From Candidatus Omnitrophota bacterium (GTDB lineage: Bacteria > Ratteibacteria > UBA8468 > MWAK01), in contig JAZDPL010000038.1 in the NCBI GenBank assembly GCA_043797665.1, forward strand, positions 26,940 to 90,939: a stretch of DNA of 64,000 nt, given 5' to 3'. Shown here piece after piece: positions 8,028 to 17,009 of the stretch (within the stretch, counting starts at the first letter, position 1; the number at the start of each line of letters is the position of its first letter). Both the position numbers and the translations under genes were made by a program. The notes beneath the pieces are model-generated. The model ran no database searches. It was not told the DNA's origin and saw only the letters and a list, made by a program, of their open reading frames with translations.

Positions 8028-8777
8028 ATGGTGGGAGAGATGCTTGTCCTGACGCTGCTTACGACGACCAGCGTCCAGGATTGCGGTTTGCTGGACAAGA
8101 TTTTGCCGAAGTTTGAAAAAAAGTTTCAGTGCCAGGTCAGGGTGGTTGCGGTTGGCTCCGGCGCTGCCTTCCGGTTAGGTAAGGACGGACAGGGTGACAT
8201 CCTCCTGGTCCATGAACCGGAAGGTGAACAGAACTTCCTTCGGGAAGGTTACGGTACCAAAAGATATCCGGTGATGAGTAACGAATTTATTCTGGTGGGA
8301 CCGAAGGAAAAAGAATTCAAAAAAAAGAACGATTTAATGGAAATTTTACGAGAGATTTGCGATTCCCAATGGAGGTTCGTTTCCCGGGGGGATAATTCCG
8401 GTACCCACCGGAGAGAACTGCAACTCTGGAAGAAAGCCGGGGTCAAACCAAAAGACTCCTGCTACTTAGAAACGGGCCAGGGAATGATTGAAACCTTAAG
8501 GGTAGCCAACGAAAAAGGAGCGCTCGCCTTGACCGACAACGCTACTTTTTTCCGGCACCAGGATGAACTGAAAAATCTAAAGGTCTATTATATGGGAGGA
8601 CAGGAACTGATTAACCGATACAGTTTGATTCCCGTCTCTCCGGAAAAATTCCCCAAGGCTAATCATAAATTGGCTTTAAAACTGGTGGAATATTTCTTGA
8701 GTTCAGAGGTTCAAAATTATATCAAAACTTTCGGCAGTGAGTGGGGTTACCAAATCTTTAAACCCGGCGTAAAATGA
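8028..8777 (+). CDS. tupA: Tungstate/molybdate ABC transporter periplasmic substrate-binding protein (TupA/WtpA-like)
   Basis: PBP-fold binding protein of about 250 aa with an N-terminal hydrophobic segment. It resembles the TupA family and sits in the Moco/FDH context next to permease and ATPase genes (16353-17664). Its stop TGA overlaps the ATG of the island helicase (ATGA). Confidence 0.6.
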   Translation: MVGEMLVLTLLTTTSVQDCGLLDKILPKFEKKFQCQVRVVAVGSGAAFRLGKDGQGDILLVHEPEGEQNFLREGYGTKRYPVMSNEFILVGPKEKEFKKKNDLMEILREICDSQWRFVSRGDNSGTHRRELQLWKKAGVKPKDSCYLETGQGMIETLRVANEKGALALTDNATFFRHQDELKNLKVYYMGGQELINRYSLIPVSPEKFPKANHKLALKLVEYFLSSEVQNYIKTFGSEWGYQIFKPGVK

Positions 8778-11728
8778 ATAATGTTTTTTTGCAACGATAC
8801 CTAGCCGAAAAATTGACATTGAAAAGGATGGCGGGTAACATAAACCGTCTATCTTCAACCCTAGCCAAGGCTTCAATTCAACTAAATCCATATCAAATCC
8901 ATGCCGCAATGTACGCTTTCGATAGTCCGTTACAAAGAGGAGCAATATTATCGGATGAGGTAGGCTTAGGTAAAACTATTGAGGCGGGTATTGTACTTTC
9001 TCAATTATGGGCAGAAGGCAGACGTAAAATTATCATTATTTGCCCAGCTTCTATTAGAAAACAATGGCAAGACGAGATTTCGAACCATTTTGGATTAAAC
9101 TCCGAAGTAATAGACGGACCAATATTTGATGACAGAGTTAATTTAGGAGACAAAATTCCTTTGACCTATGAGGGTATTTTTATTGTTTCTCTTAATTTTG
9201 CGTATAAGAAAAAGGGATTAATAGAAAAACAACCTTGGAATTGTGTGGTAATAGATGAAGCGCACAGATTAAGAAATGTTTACAAAGGGAGAGATGCTTC
9301 CAAGATGGCCTGGGAAATACGCAATATTATTAAAGATAAAGGTAAACTACTTCTTACCGCCACACCTCTTCAAAATAACCTGATGGAACTATATGGAATT
9401 GCCAGTTTTATCGATGACAAATTACTTGGCACACCGTATAGTTTTAAGAAACGATTTGTTGATCCACTAACCGAGAACAACAGTCTTTCTCAAGCTAAAT
9501 TAAAGGAATTGCGCCTTCTTATAAAGGGTGAGGAGAAATTAAGTGGTGATAGGATTAGTGGTATTTTAACTCGAACATTAAGAAAGCAGGTAACCGATTA
9601 TGTAAGATTCACCGAAAGAAGGGCTTTTACTCAAGATTTTACTCCCACAGACGAAGAAATAGAGCTATACAATAAGGTTTCTGAATATTTACAGCGACCA
9701 GCACTTGCCGCAATCCAGGCAACCCAAAGAAACTTGATGATTTTAGTATATAGAAAATTATTGGCCAGTTCTTCTTTCGCCATTGCCGGTACATTAGAAC
9801 ATCTCATAAATTTTCTGCAAAGGGAATTAGAAATGCGCCAAACTGACAGGTTGAGTAAACAAACGCAGGCTGATTTATTTTCTCAATCTAAGCTTGAAGA
9901 TGAGGGGTTAGAGGAGGAAATTGAAGAAATTGATTCAGAGGATGTTGCAGAGAAGAAAGTAAGGGCACGAATTGACGAAGAGCTGTTTAGTGATGATGAT
10001 ATCCAGGACGAAATTGACGAACTCAAATCATATTATAATCTGGCGGTTAAAATAAAAGATAATTCAAAAGGTGAGGCTTTACTCAAAGCGTTAAAAACGA
10101 TATTTAAGATTGCGCAAGAGAAAAATTGGCCACAGAAAGCAGTTGTTTTTACAGAATCCAGAAGAACCCAGGAATACATCCGCCGTCTTTTTGAACGGGA
10201 GGGCATAAGTTATACAATCTTCAATGGTTCCAATGATTCCCGTGAAGCAAGTCAAGCATATAAGAGGTGGAGTAGGGAATTTCCCGAATCTGCAGAACAA
10301 GGCTCTCCAGCGACTAATATTCGTCAGGCTTTAGTGTGCGATTTTGAAAAAAGTAAACAAGTTCTTATATCTACTGAAGCCGGAGCAGAAGGATTAAACC
10401 TACAATTTTGCAATATTGTTATAAACTATGACTTGCCATGGAATCCTCAAAGAGTGGAACAGCGGATAGGACGATGCCATCGTTATGGTCAAAAATATGA
10501 TGTTTTGGCAGTCAACTTTTTAAATACAAAAAATAGGGCCGACCAGAGAGTATTGGAACTTTTACAATATAAGGTACATCTTTTTGATGGGCTTTTCGGC
10601 TCATCGGATGAGGTATTAGGCCTCCTTGAATCAGGTGTCAACTTTGAGAAAAAAATATTGGAAATTTACCAGACTTGCCGGACTTCTGAAGAAATAGATA
10701 TTGCTTTTGCCGAACTGCAGGAATCGATTCAATCTAAAATCGCTGATGAGATGCTGAGCGTACGGAAACAACTAACAGAATATTTTGATGAGCCGGTCAG
10801 GGAATTGTTTGAGCAGACAAAATTTGAAATTAATAAGAGCTTGTCAATATTTGACAGAGATTTATTGAGGCTGTGTAAACTTTTTTACGGTAAGAAATTA
10901 TCTAACTTGGATGATGAAGGGGCTTTGTACGGGTTTGCCGAAGGAACAATCAAGAAGATTTTAGCTTTTAGGGAACTAAAAAAGGACGAGACAGGAAAAT
11001 TCATCCGCGTGAATAATGAAAACCCAATAATTTCCACTGCAATAAACGAATCTTTAAAACTCAATACATCGCCCATTCCCGTGAATTATTTTCTTTATAC
11101 TGGGACTGATAGAAAATATACCCTGTTTGAACCATTCATTGGTAAAGAAGGCGTAATCTATCTTTTCAAATTAAAGGTTAACGGACTTGAAGAAGAAGAT
11201 ATATTGGCGCCGATGATGTTTATCAAGGAAGAAGGTGATTATAAATCTGTAAGTTTAGAAATCGCCGAAGAAATACTGTCCCTGGAGGCACAGGAACAAT
11301 CTCAAAAATTGGATACGTCACCTCTTGAGGAAGAAAGAGTTTTATTGACATGGGGAGAGTGGAAAAAGCAAGTATTGGAAAAATACCAACGCCGGAATGA
11401 ACGTCTATATGACCGAGAAGTAGACAGAATAAATCGTTATTATCAGGATTATAGTCTAAGGGTTGATGACAGAATAAAAAAATCTGAAGAAGAAAAGGAA
11501 GACCTGAACCGCAGGCGCGATAATTCGGCAGACCTTACAGAACGCAGAGAACTGCACAGGAAAATACAGGGAATGGAATTAAGATTAGACAGACTACACC
11601 TCGAACAGATAAAATTGAAGCAGGAAGCAAATCAACTCAAGCAGAGAGATTATGAAGAACTGGAGAATAAATTTGAGCTCAAAACTGAGGAAGAATTAAT
11701 CGCGGTTACATTATTTAAGGTGATTTGA
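8774..11728 (+). CDS. SNF2-family (Swi2/Snf2) helicase/translocase with C-terminal coiled-coil region
   Basis: Walker A LSDEVGLGKTIEA and DEAH-box VVIDEAHRLRN. Helicase-C motifs LISTEAGAEGLNLQ and YDLPWNPQRVEQRIGRCHRYGQ. C-terminal ~250 aa is rich in E/K/R heptad-like sequence. Confidence 0.8.
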   Translation: MNNVFLQRYLAEKLTLKRMAGNINRLSSTLAKASIQLNPYQIHAAMYAFDSPLQRGAILSDEVGLGKTIEAGIVLSQLWAEGRRKIIIICPASIRKQWQDEISNHFGLNSEVIDGPIFDDRVNLGDKIPLTYEGIFIVSLNFAYKKKGLIEKQPWNCVVIDEAHRLRNVYKGRDASKMAWEIRNIIKDKGKLLLTATPLQNNLMELYGIASFIDDKLLGTPYSFKKRFVDPLTENNSLSQAKLKELRLLIKGEEKLSGDRISGILTRTLRKQVTDYVRFTERRAFTQDFTPTDEEIELYNKVSEYLQRPALAAIQATQRNLMILVYRKLLASSSFAIAGTLEHLINFLQRELEMRQTDRLSKQTQADLFSQSKLEDEGLEEEIEEIDSEDVAEKKVRARIDEELFSDDDIQDEIDELKSYYNLAVKIKDNSKGEALLKALKTIFKIAQEKNWPQKAVVFTESRRTQEYIRRLFEREGISYTIFNGSNDSREASQAYKRWSREFPESAEQGSPATNIRQALVCDFEKSKQVLISTEAGAEGLNLQFCNIVINYDLPWNPQRVEQRIGRCHRYGQKYDVLAVNFLNTKNRADQRVLELLQYKVHLFDGLFGSSDEVLGLLESGVNFEKKILEIYQTCRTSEEIDIAFAELQESIQSKIADEMLSVRKQLTEYFDEPVRELFEQTKFEINKSLSIFDRDLLRLCKLFYGKKLSNLDDEGALYGFAEGTIKKILAFRELKKDETGKFIRVNNENPIISTAINESLKLNTSPIPVNYFLYTGTDRKYTLFEPFIGKEGVIYLFKLKVNGLEEEDILAPMMFIKEEGDYKSVSLEIAEEILSLEAQEQSQKLDTSPLEEERVLLTWGEWKKQVLEKYQRRNERLYDREVDRINRYYQDYSLRVDDRIKKSEEEKEDLNRRRDNSADLTERRELHRKIQGMELRLDRLHLEQIKLKQEANQLKQRDYEELENKFELKTEEELIAVTLFKVI

Positions 11729-16356: not shown

Positions 16357-17009
16357 ATGCCTACCTGGGAGAAATACGGGAAGTGCTCCTTCTTTCCCTG
16401 GGTACCTGTACGGTCTCACTCTCCCTGGTCTTCATCTTCGGACTACCCTTAACCCTGTTCCTCTTTCTCAAGAAATTCTCCCGGAAAAATATTATCCTTG
16501 CTTTGTGCCAGTCGTTGCTGTTTATACCTTCGGTAACCCTCGGTCTTCTTCTCTATTTCCTTTTACGAAGAAATGGGGTTCTGGGCAGTCTGGAACTCCT
16601 TTACACACCCGGCGCCTTAATCATTGGCCAGTTTCTTTTGATTATCCCCCTTTTTGTTGCTTTAAGTTACCACCTGCTGCGCAGTCTTGGAACAGAATAC
16701 CTGGAACAGGTCATTTCTTTAGGGGCTAATTTCTTCCAATTGGGGTTCGCTGTCTTCCGAAAGTGTCGCTCTCAAGTTCTTGCGGCCGTAATCATCTGCG
16801 GAAGCAGGGTGTTGAGCGAAACCTCTATGGCGATGATTCTGGGCGGGAACATTAAGGGACAGACCAGGCTCTTCACTACCGCAATAGTCCTCCACACAAT
16901 GCGCGGTGAATTTGAAATAGCGGTCCTTCTCGGACTGGTATTATTCCTGATTTCGGCCGGCTTAGGTTTCCTCTTTATCTTATTCCAGAAAGATGGAACT
17001 GCAGATTAA
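16353..17009 (+). CDS. tupB: Tungstate/molybdate ABC transporter permease (TupB-like)
   Basis: Polytopic membrane protein of 218 aa with an EAA-loop-like segment (LGANFFQLGFAVFRKCRSQVL). Followed by the ATPase gene. Confidence 0.55.
   Translation: MNAYLGEIREVLLLSLGTCTVSLSLVFIFGLPLTLFLFLKKFSRKNIILALCQSLLFIPSVTLGLLLYFLLRRNGVLGSLELLYTPGALIIGQFLLIIPLFVALSYHLLRSLGTEYLEQVISLGANFFQLGFAVFRKCRSQVLAAVIICGSRVLSETSMAMILGGNIKGQTRLFTTAIVLHTMRGEFEIAVLLGLVLFLISAGLGFLFILFQKDGTAD

What the first reader, a model, noticed from the sequence alone, without database searches (positions are those of the whole stretch)
8760..16380. Island is spliced into the tungstate transporter operon with overlapping stop/start codons on both sides
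tupA ends ...GVK-TGA where the TGA overlaps the helicase ATG (aaATGAataatg) at 8774. At the other end the zinc-ribbon gene's TGA overlaps the tupB ATG (ctcATGAatgcc) at 16353. The composition switches from visibly AT-rich to GC-rich at exactly these points. The foreign block therefore separates a substrate-binding gene from its permease and ATPase without adding any obvious promoter or terminator. This implies read-through co-expression of the defence genes with W/Mo uptake, or disruption of tup operon stoichiometry. Neither integrase nor flanking repeats are visible, so the insertion mechanism is unclear.
Basis: seen in the sequence. Interest (0 to 1): 0.6.

Follow-up and report, generated by a model that had tools for sequence, protein, structure and literature searches.

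The report
Defence cassette spliced into tungstate operon
A 7.6-kb foreign restriction-modification-like gene cassette really has been inserted, to the base, at the 4-bp stop/start overlap between two genes of a tungstate-uptake/formate-dehydrogenase operon, apparently by short-homology recombination and without any integrase; this is a very clean example of a known kind of event, not a new one.

Summary
Window 8774-16356 carries five tightly packed + strand genes with GC 0.365, against 0.471 for the rest of the window (p=6e-9). Both ends are ATGA stop/start overlaps.

A closely related metagenome contig (L001) has tupA directly followed by tupB (...GTAAAATGAATGCC...), which is a clean empty site. 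Two distant relatives are also contiguous. So this is an insertion of 7579 bp.

The closest cassette relative (L004, helicase 95% aa) natively starts ...AAATGAATAATG. The left junction therefore lies in an 8-bp microhomology with the tupA-stop/tupB-start. I found no terminal inverted repeats and no recombinase.

The cassette is a rare, AT-rich, Type-I-like RM unit:
- an SNF2 motor;
- an N6-MTase with a TRD;
- a PD-(D/E)xK nuclease fused to a degenerate MTase-like domain;
- a DUF3800 gene with a convergent small RNA;
- a Zn-ribbon gene.

Elsewhere the cassette has its own upstream region or an HTH controller; here it has neither. Read-through expression and translational coupling are inferred, not shown.

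A second AT-rich island (58980-60427, after metG) has the same junction style and a 107-bp target duplication. Interest is moderate.

The parts
8028..8777 (+). tupA-like tungstate-binding protein gene (249 aa, TTTS motif, no signal peptide); its TGA overlaps the helicase ATG
   Evidence: Pfam PBP_like_2. NCBIfam TupA scores 202 bits against a cut-off of 400. It is 89% aa identical to P0001 (L001). N-terminus compared with signal-bearing homologues. TTTS motif as described in PMC5517513.
8772..8779 (+). Left junction. AAATGAAT is an 8-bp microhomology between the host tupA-stop/tupB-start and the native helicase start. ATGAAT (8774-8779) is copy 1 of the 6-bp direct repeat.
   Evidence: Window, L001 (empty site) and L004 (donor-like) sequences side by side. 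The pattern occurs only 3 times in the window.
8774..11728 (+). SNF2-family helicase/translocase (984 aa), DrmD_b-like, with Walker A GLGKT and DEAH motifs intact
   Evidence: Pfam SNF2-rel_dom and Helicase_C. PADLOC DrmD 6e-187. NCBIfam DISARM_DrmD_b scores 610 bits against a cut-off of 950. Closest homologue is P0121 at 95%. PDB matches are SNF2/RapA.
11730..13469 (+). N6-adenine DNA methyltransferase (motif IV NPPY) fused to a Type-I-S-like target recognition domain (579 aa)
   Evidence: Pfam N6_Mtase and Eco57I. PADLOC MTase_II/MTase_I and Specificity_I on residues 362-525. NPPY is conserved in 4 homologues. The gene is split into M + S genes in L039 and L057. The TRD region has diverged from L004 (nt homology is lost over 12752-13296).
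13466..14209 (+). DUF3800 protein gene (247 aa), an optional module of the cassette
   Evidence: Pfam DUF3800 1.7e-17. Present in L006, L039, L053-57 and absent from L004 and L005.
14205..14323 (-). Conserved non-coding element, probably a convergent small RNA of about 85-95 nt on the minus strand. Parts: -35 TTGACA at 14323-14318, -10 at 14300-14295, conserved hairpin (GAUCGGGG UGUC UCCCGGUC, + strand 14244-14265), terminator hairpin 14217-14240, then a U-run.
   Evidence: Promoter and terminator scan. Alignment of the gaps. Folds. Consensus structure with an invariant U-G wobble and a covarying C-G/U-A pair. Present in 5 of 5 distinct DUF3800-bearing cassettes and 0 of 2 without. No Rfam hit at E<=10.
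14324..16135 (+). HSDR_N-type PD-(D/E)xK nuclease (PD...EAK intact) fused to an MTase-like domain whose motif IV is NP[AS]G instead of NPPY (603 aa). This is the signature protein of the cassette.
   Evidence: Pfam HSDR_N and N6_Mtase. Alignment of 5 homologues. Only 27 representative clusters at E<=1e-30 among 1.84 billion.
16141..16356 (+). 71-aa four-cysteine Zn-ribbon protein gene; its TGA overlaps the tupB ATG
   Evidence: ORF. Homologues are 64-100 aa. It follows the nuclease-MTase gene in L038 as well (68% identity) but is solitary in L007-L011.
16353..16358 (+). Right junction: copy 2 of ATGAAT. Host sequence resumes here with no loss relative to the empty site.
16353..17009 (+). tupB-like ABC permease gene (218 aa)
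   Evidence: NCBIfam ABC_perm1 scores 163 bits (cut-off 100); TupB scores 117 bits (cut-off 320). It is 98% aa identical to the L001 gene that directly follows tupA.
16993..17664 (+). tupC-like ABC ATPase gene (223 aa), the last gene of the + strand operon; the next genes converge on it
   Evidence: Pfam ABC_tran. ORF map.

Best explanation
A horizontally acquired, AT-rich, Type-I-like restriction-modification cassette of 7579 bp was inserted exactly at the ATGA stop/start overlap between tupA and tupB. These are the last genes of a long + strand operon: NAD-linked formate dehydrogenase subunits, fdhD, moeA, tupA, tupB, tupC.

How it got there. The insertion was illegitimate, microhomology-guided recombination.
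- The helicase gene's own first codons and the two bases before them (AAATGAAT) are identical to the host's tupA-stop/tupB-start sequence.
- The left crossover fell inside that 8-mer.
- The right join re-created ATGAAT, leaving a 6-bp direct repeat and no loss of host sequence.
- No integrase, transposase or terminal inverted repeat is involved.

Consequences. The cassette arrived without the upstream region, ribosome-binding site or HTH controller gene that its relatives carry.
- Its first gene now sits where tupB's start codon was. It must be transcribed by read-through from the fdh/moeA/tupA promoter and translated by termination-reinitiation coupling to tupA.
- Its last gene (the Zn ribbon) is coupled in the same way to tupB.

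What the cassette does (inferred from domains). It works as an ATP-dependent RM system. MTase-TRD recognises and methylates a site. The SNF2 motor translocates DNA. The PD-(D/E)xK nuclease, fused to a degenerate MTase-like domain, cuts unmodified DNA. DUF3800 with its small RNA, and the Zn-ribbon protein, are accessory modules.

Shown: the insertion, its exact ends, the repeat, the microhomology with a donor-like relative, the foreign composition, and intact catalytic motifs. Inferred: the recombination route, the expression by read-through and coupling, and the division of labour inside the cassette.
For: Empty site. L001 has ...GTAAAATGAATGCCTACC..., with tupA 92-93% nt and tupB 97% nt / 98% aa identical. 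L002 and L003 are also contiguous with a 4-bp overlap.

Composition. GC 0.365 against 0.471, p=6e-9. GC3 0.30-0.33 against about 0.5.

Donor-like relative. L004 reads GGAGAAATAAATGAATAATGTTTTT. Nucleotide homology to the window starts at 8772 and is 91.5% over 4 kb.

Mobility of the cassette.
- It sits in six other unrelated contexts. Each has at least 113 bp of its own upstream DNA (L004, L006, L039, L057) or an HTH_3 gene overlapping the helicase start (L053-56, between gmk and secA).
- Its GC is 0.33-0.37 whatever the flanks are (0.31-0.52).
- It has no terminal inverted repeats and no recombinase domain.

Integrity. All ORFs are full length and motifs are intact: NPPY, PD..EAK, GLGKT/DEAH.

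Expression. No plus-strand terminator follows tupA, and promoter-like hits are at chance level.

Precedent. RM gene complexes inserted with target duplication, with repeats spanning start or stop codons, and inserted into operon-like clusters (PMC2853133). A second island in this window was inserted with a 107-bp target duplication at the metG stop codon.
Against: - No true donor is known. L004 is only 91.5% identical in DNA and lacks both DUF3800 and the Zn-ribbon gene. The sequence that lay beyond the donor's Zn-ribbon stop is unknown, so the right-hand join cannot be reconstructed.
- A 6-bp duplication is also what a transposase or a staggered break would leave.
- Only one empty-site contig exists (1.2 kb, metagenomic). 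It differs upstream: fdhD-tupA without moeA.
- Expression is entirely inferred. AT-rich DNA contains many promoter-like sequences (for example TTGACA-16-TACAAT at 15261-15288) that could drive the distal genes and tupBC independently.
- The window's source reads were not available, so misassembly cannot be formally excluded.
Confidence: 0.72

Rival explanations
1. Campbell-type integration of a circular copy of the cassette. A circle closed as ...CTC-ATGAAT-AATG... (Zn-ribbon stop overlapping the helicase start) recombined once with the host ATGAAT. That would give the same 6-bp repeat at both ends.
For: - A single crossover at a short shared core gives exactly the observed structure: a repeat at both ends and no loss of host sequence.
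- Both ends of the insert coincide with gene ends. The helicase keeps its native start. The Zn-ribbon ORF has near-native length, 71 aa against 64-69 aa.
Against: - No relative shows the Zn-ribbon gene joined to the helicase start.
- In L004, L006, L039, L053 and L057 the sequence upstream of the helicase is unrelated to the window's right end.
- There is no recombinase, and 6-8 bp is very short for RecA-dependent exchange.
Confidence: 0.12
2. Insertion by a transposase or integrase acting in trans, with ATGAAT as a 6-bp target-site duplication.
For: - Short direct repeats that match a single copy at the empty site are the classic transposition footprint.
- RM units with an 8-bp duplication are described in PMC2853133.
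Against: - There are no terminal inverted repeats.
- The left copy of the 'duplication' is also the native first two codons of the helicase in L004. A transposon end would have had to lie exactly two codons inside the gene and be repaired perfectly by the duplication.
- No mobility gene is present in the island.
Confidence: 0.08
3. The arrangement is ancestral and L001's lineage deleted the cassette precisely between the two ATGAAT repeats.
For: Deletion between short direct repeats is common and would also leave a clean single ATGAAT.
Against: - The distant relatives L002 and L003 also have tupA-tupB contiguous with a 4-bp overlap.
- The cassette's GC and GC3 are far from the host's.
- The cassette occurs in unrelated genomes at unrelated sites with the same composition.
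Confidence: 0.03
4. Assembly artefact: a foreign contig was joined into the operon by the assembler.
For: The window's origin and reads are unknown. Neither TupA nor TupB of the window is on record as an exact protein.
Against: - Both junctions return to the same operon at the same base, with no loss of host sequence.
- The shared sequence is only 6-8 bp, far below assembler k-mers.
- Reading frames are perfectly preserved at both ends.
Confidence: 0.03

Closest known systems
Restriction-modification gene complexes as integrase-free mobile units, inserted with target duplication, including into operon-like clusters (Furuta, Abe & Kobayashi 2010, PMC2853133)
   Same: - An RM-type cassette with no mobility gene.
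- An empty site in a relative.
- A direct repeat that is single-copy at the empty site.
- A repeat that spans a translation stop/start, so the host genes stay intact.
- Insertion inside an operon-like cluster.
- The second island of this window (after metG) shows the 'long target duplication' form (107 bp).
   Different: - Here the duplication is only 6 bp.
- A donor-like relative shows that the left junction lies in an 8-bp microhomology with the cassette's own start codon.
- Both ends are ATGA translational-coupling overlaps, and the cassette has lost its own upstream control region.
Type I and Type ISP restriction-modification enzymes
   Same: The same set of activities is present: a gamma-class N6-adenine MTase, a Type-I-S-like TRD (a separate S gene in some relatives), an SF2 ATP-dependent motor, and an HsdR-N-type PD-(D/E)xK nuclease.
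   Different: - The motor is an SNF2/DrmD-like protein on its own polypeptide.
- The nuclease is fused to a second, degenerate MTase-like domain (NP[AS]G) instead of to the motor.
- It is neither one polypeptide as in Type ISP nor an HsdR/M/S trio.
DISARM class 1 (DrmD SNF2 helicase + DrmMI + DrmA/B/C)
   Same: The helicase's best family match is DrmD (PADLOC 6e-187; NCBIfam DISARM_DrmD_b). Plasmid relatives at about 36% identity sit in HTH-SNF2-large MTase-...-DEAD helicase loci.
   Different: - The score is below the NCBIfam cut-off (610 against 950).
- There is no DrmA, DrmB or DrmC, and the island is bounded by host genes, so they cannot be adjacent.
- The partner genes are different.
Hma / DUF499-centred BREX-related (BR) systems (PMC12839542)
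   Same: It is a compact RM-like unit that combines an SNF2 helicase with an N6-MTase and a PD-(D/E)xK nuclease.
   Different: - There is no DUF499/BrxC-like ATPase, which defines those systems.
- The nuclease is on the MTase-like protein, not on the helicase.
Integron gene cassettes (a comparison of how it works, not a membership claim)
   Same: A promoterless foreign unit is placed downstream of a resident promoter and depends on it for expression.
   Different: There is no IntI, no attI or attC, and no array. It looks like a single one-off event guided by microhomology.
DUF3800-associated RNA motifs (Weinberg et al. 2017, PMC5737381)
   Same: - A conserved structured non-coding element lies next to a DUF3800 gene.
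- It is on the opposite strand and ends in a Rho-independent terminator.
- It travels with the gene.
   Different: - No Rfam model (DUF3800-I and the rest) matches at E<=10.
- Its 18-22-nt apical hairpin also occurs in intergenic regions and terminators of crAss-like and other phage contigs.

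Membership tests
TupABC tungstate ABC transporter | Proteins reach the NCBIfam equivalog cut-offs for TupA, TupB and TupC | tested here: not met
   TupA scores 202 bits (cut-off 400), TupB 117 (320) and TupC 76 (400). TupA and TupB are nevertheless the best specific matches, and ABC_perm1 scores 163 against a cut-off of 100.
TupABC tungstate ABC transporter | TTTS oxyanion-binding motif in TupA | tested here: met
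   The sequence LLTTTSVQD lies at residues 10-18. The motif is described in PMC5517513.
TupABC tungstate ABC transporter | The substrate-binding protein is exported (signal peptide or lipobox) | tested here: not met
   The ORF starts about 10 residues before the first strand of the mature domain, and there is an in-frame stop upstream. Homologues P0013, P0049 and P0115 have 25-35 extra N-terminal hydrophobic residues; P0001, P0005 and P0012 do not.
TupABC tungstate ABC transporter | tupA-tupB-tupC are contiguous in relatives | tested here: met
   L001, L002 and L003.
RM gene complex inserted with target duplication (PMC2853133) | An empty site in a related genome, with the flanking direct repeat present once there | tested here: met
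   L001 has a single ATGAAT; the window has ATGAAT at 8774 and at 16353.
RM gene complex inserted with target duplication (PMC2853133) | Transposon-like subclass: terminal inverted repeats inside the duplication | tested here: not met
   No inverted repeat pairs the two termini.
Type I restriction-modification | HsdM-type N6-adenine MTase with motif IV NPPY/F/W, plus an HsdS-type TRD | tested here: met
   Gene 11730-13469 has NPPY at residue 137. Specificity_I and MADS5 match residues 323-541. Methylase_S is found in the L053 and L057 homologues.
Type I restriction-modification | HsdR: one polypeptide with an N-terminal PD-(D/E)xK nuclease and a DEAD-type motor | tested here: not met
   The nuclease domain (HSDR_N, 5e-5) is on the 603-aa MTase-like protein. 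The motor is a separate SNF2 protein.
DISARM class 1 | DrmD SNF2 helicase at the equivalog level | tested here: inconclusive
   NF038318 scores 610 bits against a cut-off of 950, covering residues 16-691 of 984. PADLOC DrmD gives 6e-187.
DISARM class 1 | DrmA (helicase) and DrmB (DUF1998) are present in the locus | tested here: not met
   The island's five proteins have no such domains, and host genes abut both ends.
Hma / BR systems | DUF499 (BrxC-like) ATPase | tested here: not met
   Absent from the island. The definition is taken from PMC12839542.
Type ISP restriction-modification | Nuclease, motor, MTase and TRD in one polypeptide | tested here: not met
   They are spread over three genes.
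DUF3800-associated RNA motifs | A conserved structured element consistently adjacent to DUF3800 genes, often with a 3' terminator | tested here: met
   Present in 5 of 5 distinct DUF3800-bearing cassettes and 0 of 2 without. There is a minus-strand terminator and one covarying pair.
DUF3800-associated RNA motifs | Match to one of the published models held in Rfam | tested here: not met
   cmscan of 14100-14450 at E<=10 returned only chance-level matches to unrelated families. L040 1900-2600 returned none.

The most novel reading that the evidence does not exclude
In this lineage, promoterless foreign defence genes may be captured repeatedly at host stop/start boundaries by a sequence-directed, integrase-free route.

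The evidence is thin but specific. The window holds two independent AT-rich islands: the RM cassette after tupA, and a Schlafen/AlbA_2 gene after metG. In both, the left junction is the same octamer AAATGAAT, forming an ATGA overlap with the host stop codon. These are two of only three AAATGAAT copies in 64 kb.

If this is a real targeting rule, for example replication-fork template switching primed at A-rich start-codon contexts, it would be an unrecognised way of wiring incoming defence genes straight into housekeeping operons.
Probability: 0.07. Interest if true: 0.75.

Novelty: new member of a known kind. Interest (0 to 1): 0.4.

Why it matters
How defence islands that carry no integrase or transposase get into genomes is poorly documented at base resolution. 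This locus offers an occupied site, an empty site and a donor-like relative together. Between them they show an 8-bp microhomology join that leaves every reading frame and both translational couplings intact.

It also shows an RM-type cassette stripped of its own control region and placed under a metabolic operon (formate dehydrogenase, W/Mo cofactor and tungstate uptake). If the cassette is expressed that way, defence would be tied to that regulon and the tupA:tupBC ratio would probably change. RT-PCR and methylome sequencing could test this.

The cassette itself is a rare, uncharacterised Type-I-like architecture.

In addition, its DUF3800 module carries a candidate small RNA whose hairpin is shared with phages.

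Tried and rejected
Searches that led nowhere.
- Exact-protein look-ups of the window's TupA and TupB: not on record, so neither the source contig nor population variants could be examined.
- GTDB scan with FdhA: the best hit is only 64% identical (Ca. Hydrothermus pacificus), and no locus has tup synteny. The host lineage is not represented.
- Viral-contig scans with the helicase, Zn-ribbon and DUF3800 proteins: no relatives, so there is no sign of phage carriage.
- Donor search for the right junction: the closest Zn-ribbon relatives are 57-68% identical. That is too distant to reconstruct the donor's 3' flank.
- Rfam: nothing at the conserved gap element. ARAGORN finds no tRNA at the phage copies.

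Ideas considered and rejected.
- I first suspected that the 71-aa Zn-ribbon ORF was a truncated fragment, because L007 has a 281-aa fusion. I rejected this because four other homologues are 64-100 aa.
- Terminal inverted repeats or longer flanking repeats around the island: none.
- Plus-strand promoters or terminators above chance: none.
- Hma/BR, DISARM, MADS and Type ISP membership: each fails a defining component.

Full report
**1. The observation**

The + strand of window 60-17664 is one tight gene string:
- a 1042-aa NuoF/GltD-like protein;
- formate dehydrogenase alpha, 3155-5899;
- fdhD, 5919-6734;
- moeA, 6741-8012;
- a TupA-like binding protein, 8028-8777;
- five further ORFs (8774-11728, 11730-13469, 13466-14209, 14324-16135, 16141-16356);
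- a TupB-like permease, 16353-17009;
- a TupC-like ATPase, 16993-17664.

After that, genes converge from the minus strand.

The tupA TGA (8775-8777) overlaps the ATG at 8774. The Zn-ribbon TGA (16354-16356) overlaps the tupB ATG at 16353.

The composition of the block 8774-16356 is clearly different:
- GC is 0.365, against 0.471 for the rest of the window.
- The fifteen 500-bp windows inside all lie at or below 0.392. The 112 outside average 0.471 +/- 0.042 (Mann-Whitney p=6e-9).
- It is the lowest-GC 7.6-kb stretch of the window.
- GC3 is 0.30-0.33, against 0.42-0.62 for almost every other gene.

The right boundary is sharp. At the left, the last ~200 bp of tupA are already AT-rich. That is native, because the relative L001 has the same sequence.

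**2. It is an insertion**

The closest TupA in 5.8 billion proteins (P0001, 89% aa) lies on the JGI contig L001. There, tupA is followed at once by tupB with the same ATGA overlap...GCCGTAAAATGAATGCCTACCTGG... TupB is 98% identical over 129 aa and 97% in DNA.

The window reads ...GGCGTAAAATGAAT|AATGTTTTT... on the left and ...TACTCCTC|ATGAATGCCTACCTGG... on the right. So 7579 bp were added, no host base was lost, and ATGAAT now stands at both ends.

Two distant relatives (L002 and L003, about 47% aa) also have tupA-tupB-tupC contiguous with 4-bp overlaps, inside FDH/Moco clusters.

L001 is not the same strain. Upstream of tupA it carries the end of fdhD, not moeA (read from the alignment).

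**3. Where the cassette comes from**

The helicase has thousands of relatives. The closest is 95% identical. Contexts could be read for six distinct relatives.

| Locus | Arrangement |
|---|---|
| L004 | SNF2, MTase, nuclease-MTase |
| L005 | the same, plus an unrelated 65-aa ORF |
| L006, L039, L057 | with DUF3800 between the two MTase genes |
| L053-56 | the same, preceded by a 66-aa HTH_3 gene overlapping the helicase start; inserted between gmk and secA |

- In all of them the cassette's GC is 0.33-0.37, while the flanks range from 0.31 to 0.52.
- Wherever the upstream DNA could be read, there are at least 113 bp of non-coding DNA or a controller gene ahead of the helicase. Only the window copy is fused to a host gene.
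- None of the loci carries a recombinase next to the cassette.
- In L039 and L057 the first MTase is split into M and S genes.
- The TRD part differs most between copies. Nucleotide homology to L004 is lost over 12752-13296, as expected for specificity swapping.

**4. The junctions**

L004 reads ...TTCGGAGAAATAAATGAATAATGTTTTTTTGCAACG. This shows a GGAG ribosome-binding site and then the same M-N-N-V-F start as the window. BLAST homology to the window begins at 8772.

The host empty site reads GTAAAATGAATGCC. Donor-like and recipient sequences therefore share AAATGAAT, and the left crossover lies inside those 8 bp. The other relatives start ATGAGT, TTGAGT, ATGCCA or ATGTCT. Only this clade of the cassette offers the match.

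A plain 6-bp target duplication by a transposase would have had to restore the helicase's own first two codons by chance. There are also no terminal inverted repeats.

The right join cannot be reconstructed:
- The Zn-ribbon gene has no relative closer than 68%.
- In L038 it also follows the nuclease-MTase gene, and it ends ...AAAAAATGAAAG.
- Homologues are 64-100 aa, so the window's 71-aa ORF is essentially full length.
- Its TGA may be native or may be supplied by the host.

I therefore favour microhomology-guided illegitimate recombination (about 0.6-0.7 for that step). Single-crossover entry of a circle, and transposition in trans, are the lesser rivals. Loss of the cassette in L001, and misassembly, are both unlikely.

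**5. What the cassette is**

- Gene 1 is an SNF2 ATPase with GLGKT and DEAH. Its best match is DrmD_b, below the family cut-off.
- Gene 2 is a gamma-class N6-adenine MTase (NPPY) fused to a Type-I-S-like TRD.
- Gene 4 has an HsdR-N-type PD-(D/E)xK motif (KKPDVVYYW...LLIEAKK) that is invariant in five homologues. This is followed by an MTase-like domain with motif I intact but motif IV reading NP[AS]G in all five. It is probably not a canonical methyltransferase. This protein family is rare: 27 representative clusters at E<=1e-30 among 1.84 billion.

Together these give the parts list of a Type I / Type ISP enzyme (site recognition and methylation, an ATP motor, and a nuclease), but distributed differently.

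It is not any of the named systems I checked:
- not DISARM (no DrmA/B/C);
- not Hma/BR (no DUF499; PMC12839542);
- not MADS (scores far below the cut-offs);
- not Type ISP.

Plasmid relatives of the helicase, at about 36% identity, sit in DISARM-class-1-like loci. The assignment of roles is inference from domains.

**6. Expression**

Nothing separates tupA from the helicase or the Zn-ribbon gene from tupB. There is no Shine-Dalgarno sequence ahead of either ATG. In L001, tupB likewise has none, so it is normally coupled to tupA.

Plus-strand promoter-like sites are no more frequent than in shuffled sequence (27 found, 26 +/- 5 expected). No plus-strand intrinsic terminator follows tupA.

The simplest reading is read-through from the fdh/moeA/tupA promoter, with termination-reinitiation at both ATGA overlaps. 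This puts 7.6 kb between tupA and tupBC. A strong consensus match inside gene 4 (TTGACA-16-TACAAT, 15261-15288) could feed tupBC independently. None of this can be settled without RNA data.

**7. Comparison with what is known**

Furuta, Abe and Kobayashi (2010, PMC2853133) described RM gene complexes that lack mobility genes. They are flanked by direct repeats matching a single copy at an empty site. The repeats often span a start or stop codon, so the target gene stays intact, and some insertions lie inside an operon-like cluster.

This locus is a member of that class. It has an unusually short repeat, a visible microhomology with a donor-like sequence, and double translational coupling. I score it 'new member of a known kind', with interest 0.4.

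**8. Things seen on the way**

(a) *A candidate small RNA next to DUF3800.* The 114-bp gap after DUF3800 is more conserved than the coding DNA across the window, L006, L039, L053 and L057. It is absent from L004 and L005, which lack DUF3800. Read on the minus strand it has:
- a sigma-70-type promoter (TTGACA-17-TATAAT in L057, and 16-TATAAT in L006);
- a 7-bp hairpin, GAUYGGG/CCCRGUC, with an invariant U-G wobble (a C-A mismatch on the other strand) and one covarying pair;
- a terminator hairpin with compensatory changes, followed by a U-run.

It fits the description of DUF3800-associated RNA motifs (PMC5737381) but matches no Rfam model. Its apical hairpin occurs exactly in 26 IMG/VR contigs. 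These include crAss-like phages (just downstream of the major capsid gene) and the tips of terminator-like hairpins in another phage group.

(b) *A second island with the same junction style.* A second AT-rich island follows metG. The metG stop overlaps the ATG of a Schlafen/AlbA_2 gene at 58980, and the junction is again AAATGAAT. The insert is bracketed by a 107-bp duplication of the metG 3' end.

(c) *No signal peptide on TupA.* The TupA of this clade lacks a signal peptide.

Noticed in passing
window 14205-14323 (minus strand); also L006 15452-15556, L039 5580-5720, L053 11546-11640, L057 8331-8440: A conserved non-coding module travels with the DUF3800 gene. It looks like a convergent sRNA of about 85-95 nt: a sigma-70-like promoter, an invariant hairpin GAUYGGGG-UGUC-WCCCRGUC (U-G wobble and one covarying pair), then a terminator. 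It is present in 5 of 5 distinct DUF3800-bearing cassettes and 0 of 2 without. No Rfam match. It fits the class of DUF3800-associated RNA motifs (PMC5737381) but not any model held in Rfam.
   Followed up: partly
L040-L052 and L059-L071 (IMG/VR contigs), e.g. L042 6797-6818: The same 18-22-nt hairpin sequence occurs exactly in 26 viral contigs. In crAss-like phages it lies about 100 nt downstream of the major capsid gene, in the sense orientation and inside a three-way-junction-like fold. In another phage group it forms the tip of a terminator-like hairpin followed by a U-run. In L046 it lies among tRNA genes. No DUF3800 gene is nearby in these contigs. Its function is unknown.
   Followed up: partly
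window 58875-60534 (and on to 61760): A second AT-rich island with the same junction style. The metG (57406-58983) stop overlaps the ATG at 58980 of a 476-aa Schlafen/AlbA_2 + HATPase_c_4 + Fic-like_C gene (GC 0.35), and the junction is again AAATGAAT. The insert is flanked by a 107-bp direct repeat of the metG 3' end (58875-58981 and 60428-60534, 95% identical). The second copy preserves the native ...AAATAAGG stop. More AT-rich DNA follows, with an ORF6N-domain gene (60850-61755), up to pyrH.
   Followed up: partly
window 8028-8777; P0001, P0005, P0012: The TupA-like protein and its closest relatives (247-250 aa) start directly at the mature domain (…LLTTTS…) with no signal peptide or lipobox. 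Ordinary TupA homologues carry 25-35 extra N-terminal residues. A cytoplasmic tungstate-binding protein next to moeA and FDH genes would be unusual for an ABC importer.
   Followed up: partly
window 14324-16135 and homologues in L004, L005, L006, L039: The MTase-like domain of the nuclease fusion protein has motif IV as NP[AS]G instead of (N/D/S)PP(Y/F/W) in all five sequences, while motif I (FECGSGGF) is intact. It is probably a non-catalytic or altered MTase fold.
   Followed up: partly
L001 1-88 compared with window 6741-8027: The empty-site relative has fdhD directly upstream of tupA, whereas the window has moeA between them. This is a second gene-content difference at the same locus, and here the extra gene has host-like GC.
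   Followed up: no
L053 11640-11800 and L057 8440-8515: In these cassettes the stretch just upstream of the nuclease-MTase start (AAAAGGA...TTGTCAAGTG) is present twice. L053 also carries an extra long hairpin like the one in L039. This suggests that the DUF3800 module itself was inserted with a short duplication.
   Followed up: no
window 28429-28588 (minus strand), 45594-45666 (minus strand), and 28500-32500: A 6S RNA and one tRNA are the only Rfam matches above gathering score in the window. A mildly low-GC stretch (0.39-0.42) at 28.5-32.5 kb encodes a CBM_4_9 protein and two large ORFs with no Pfam match.
   Followed up: no
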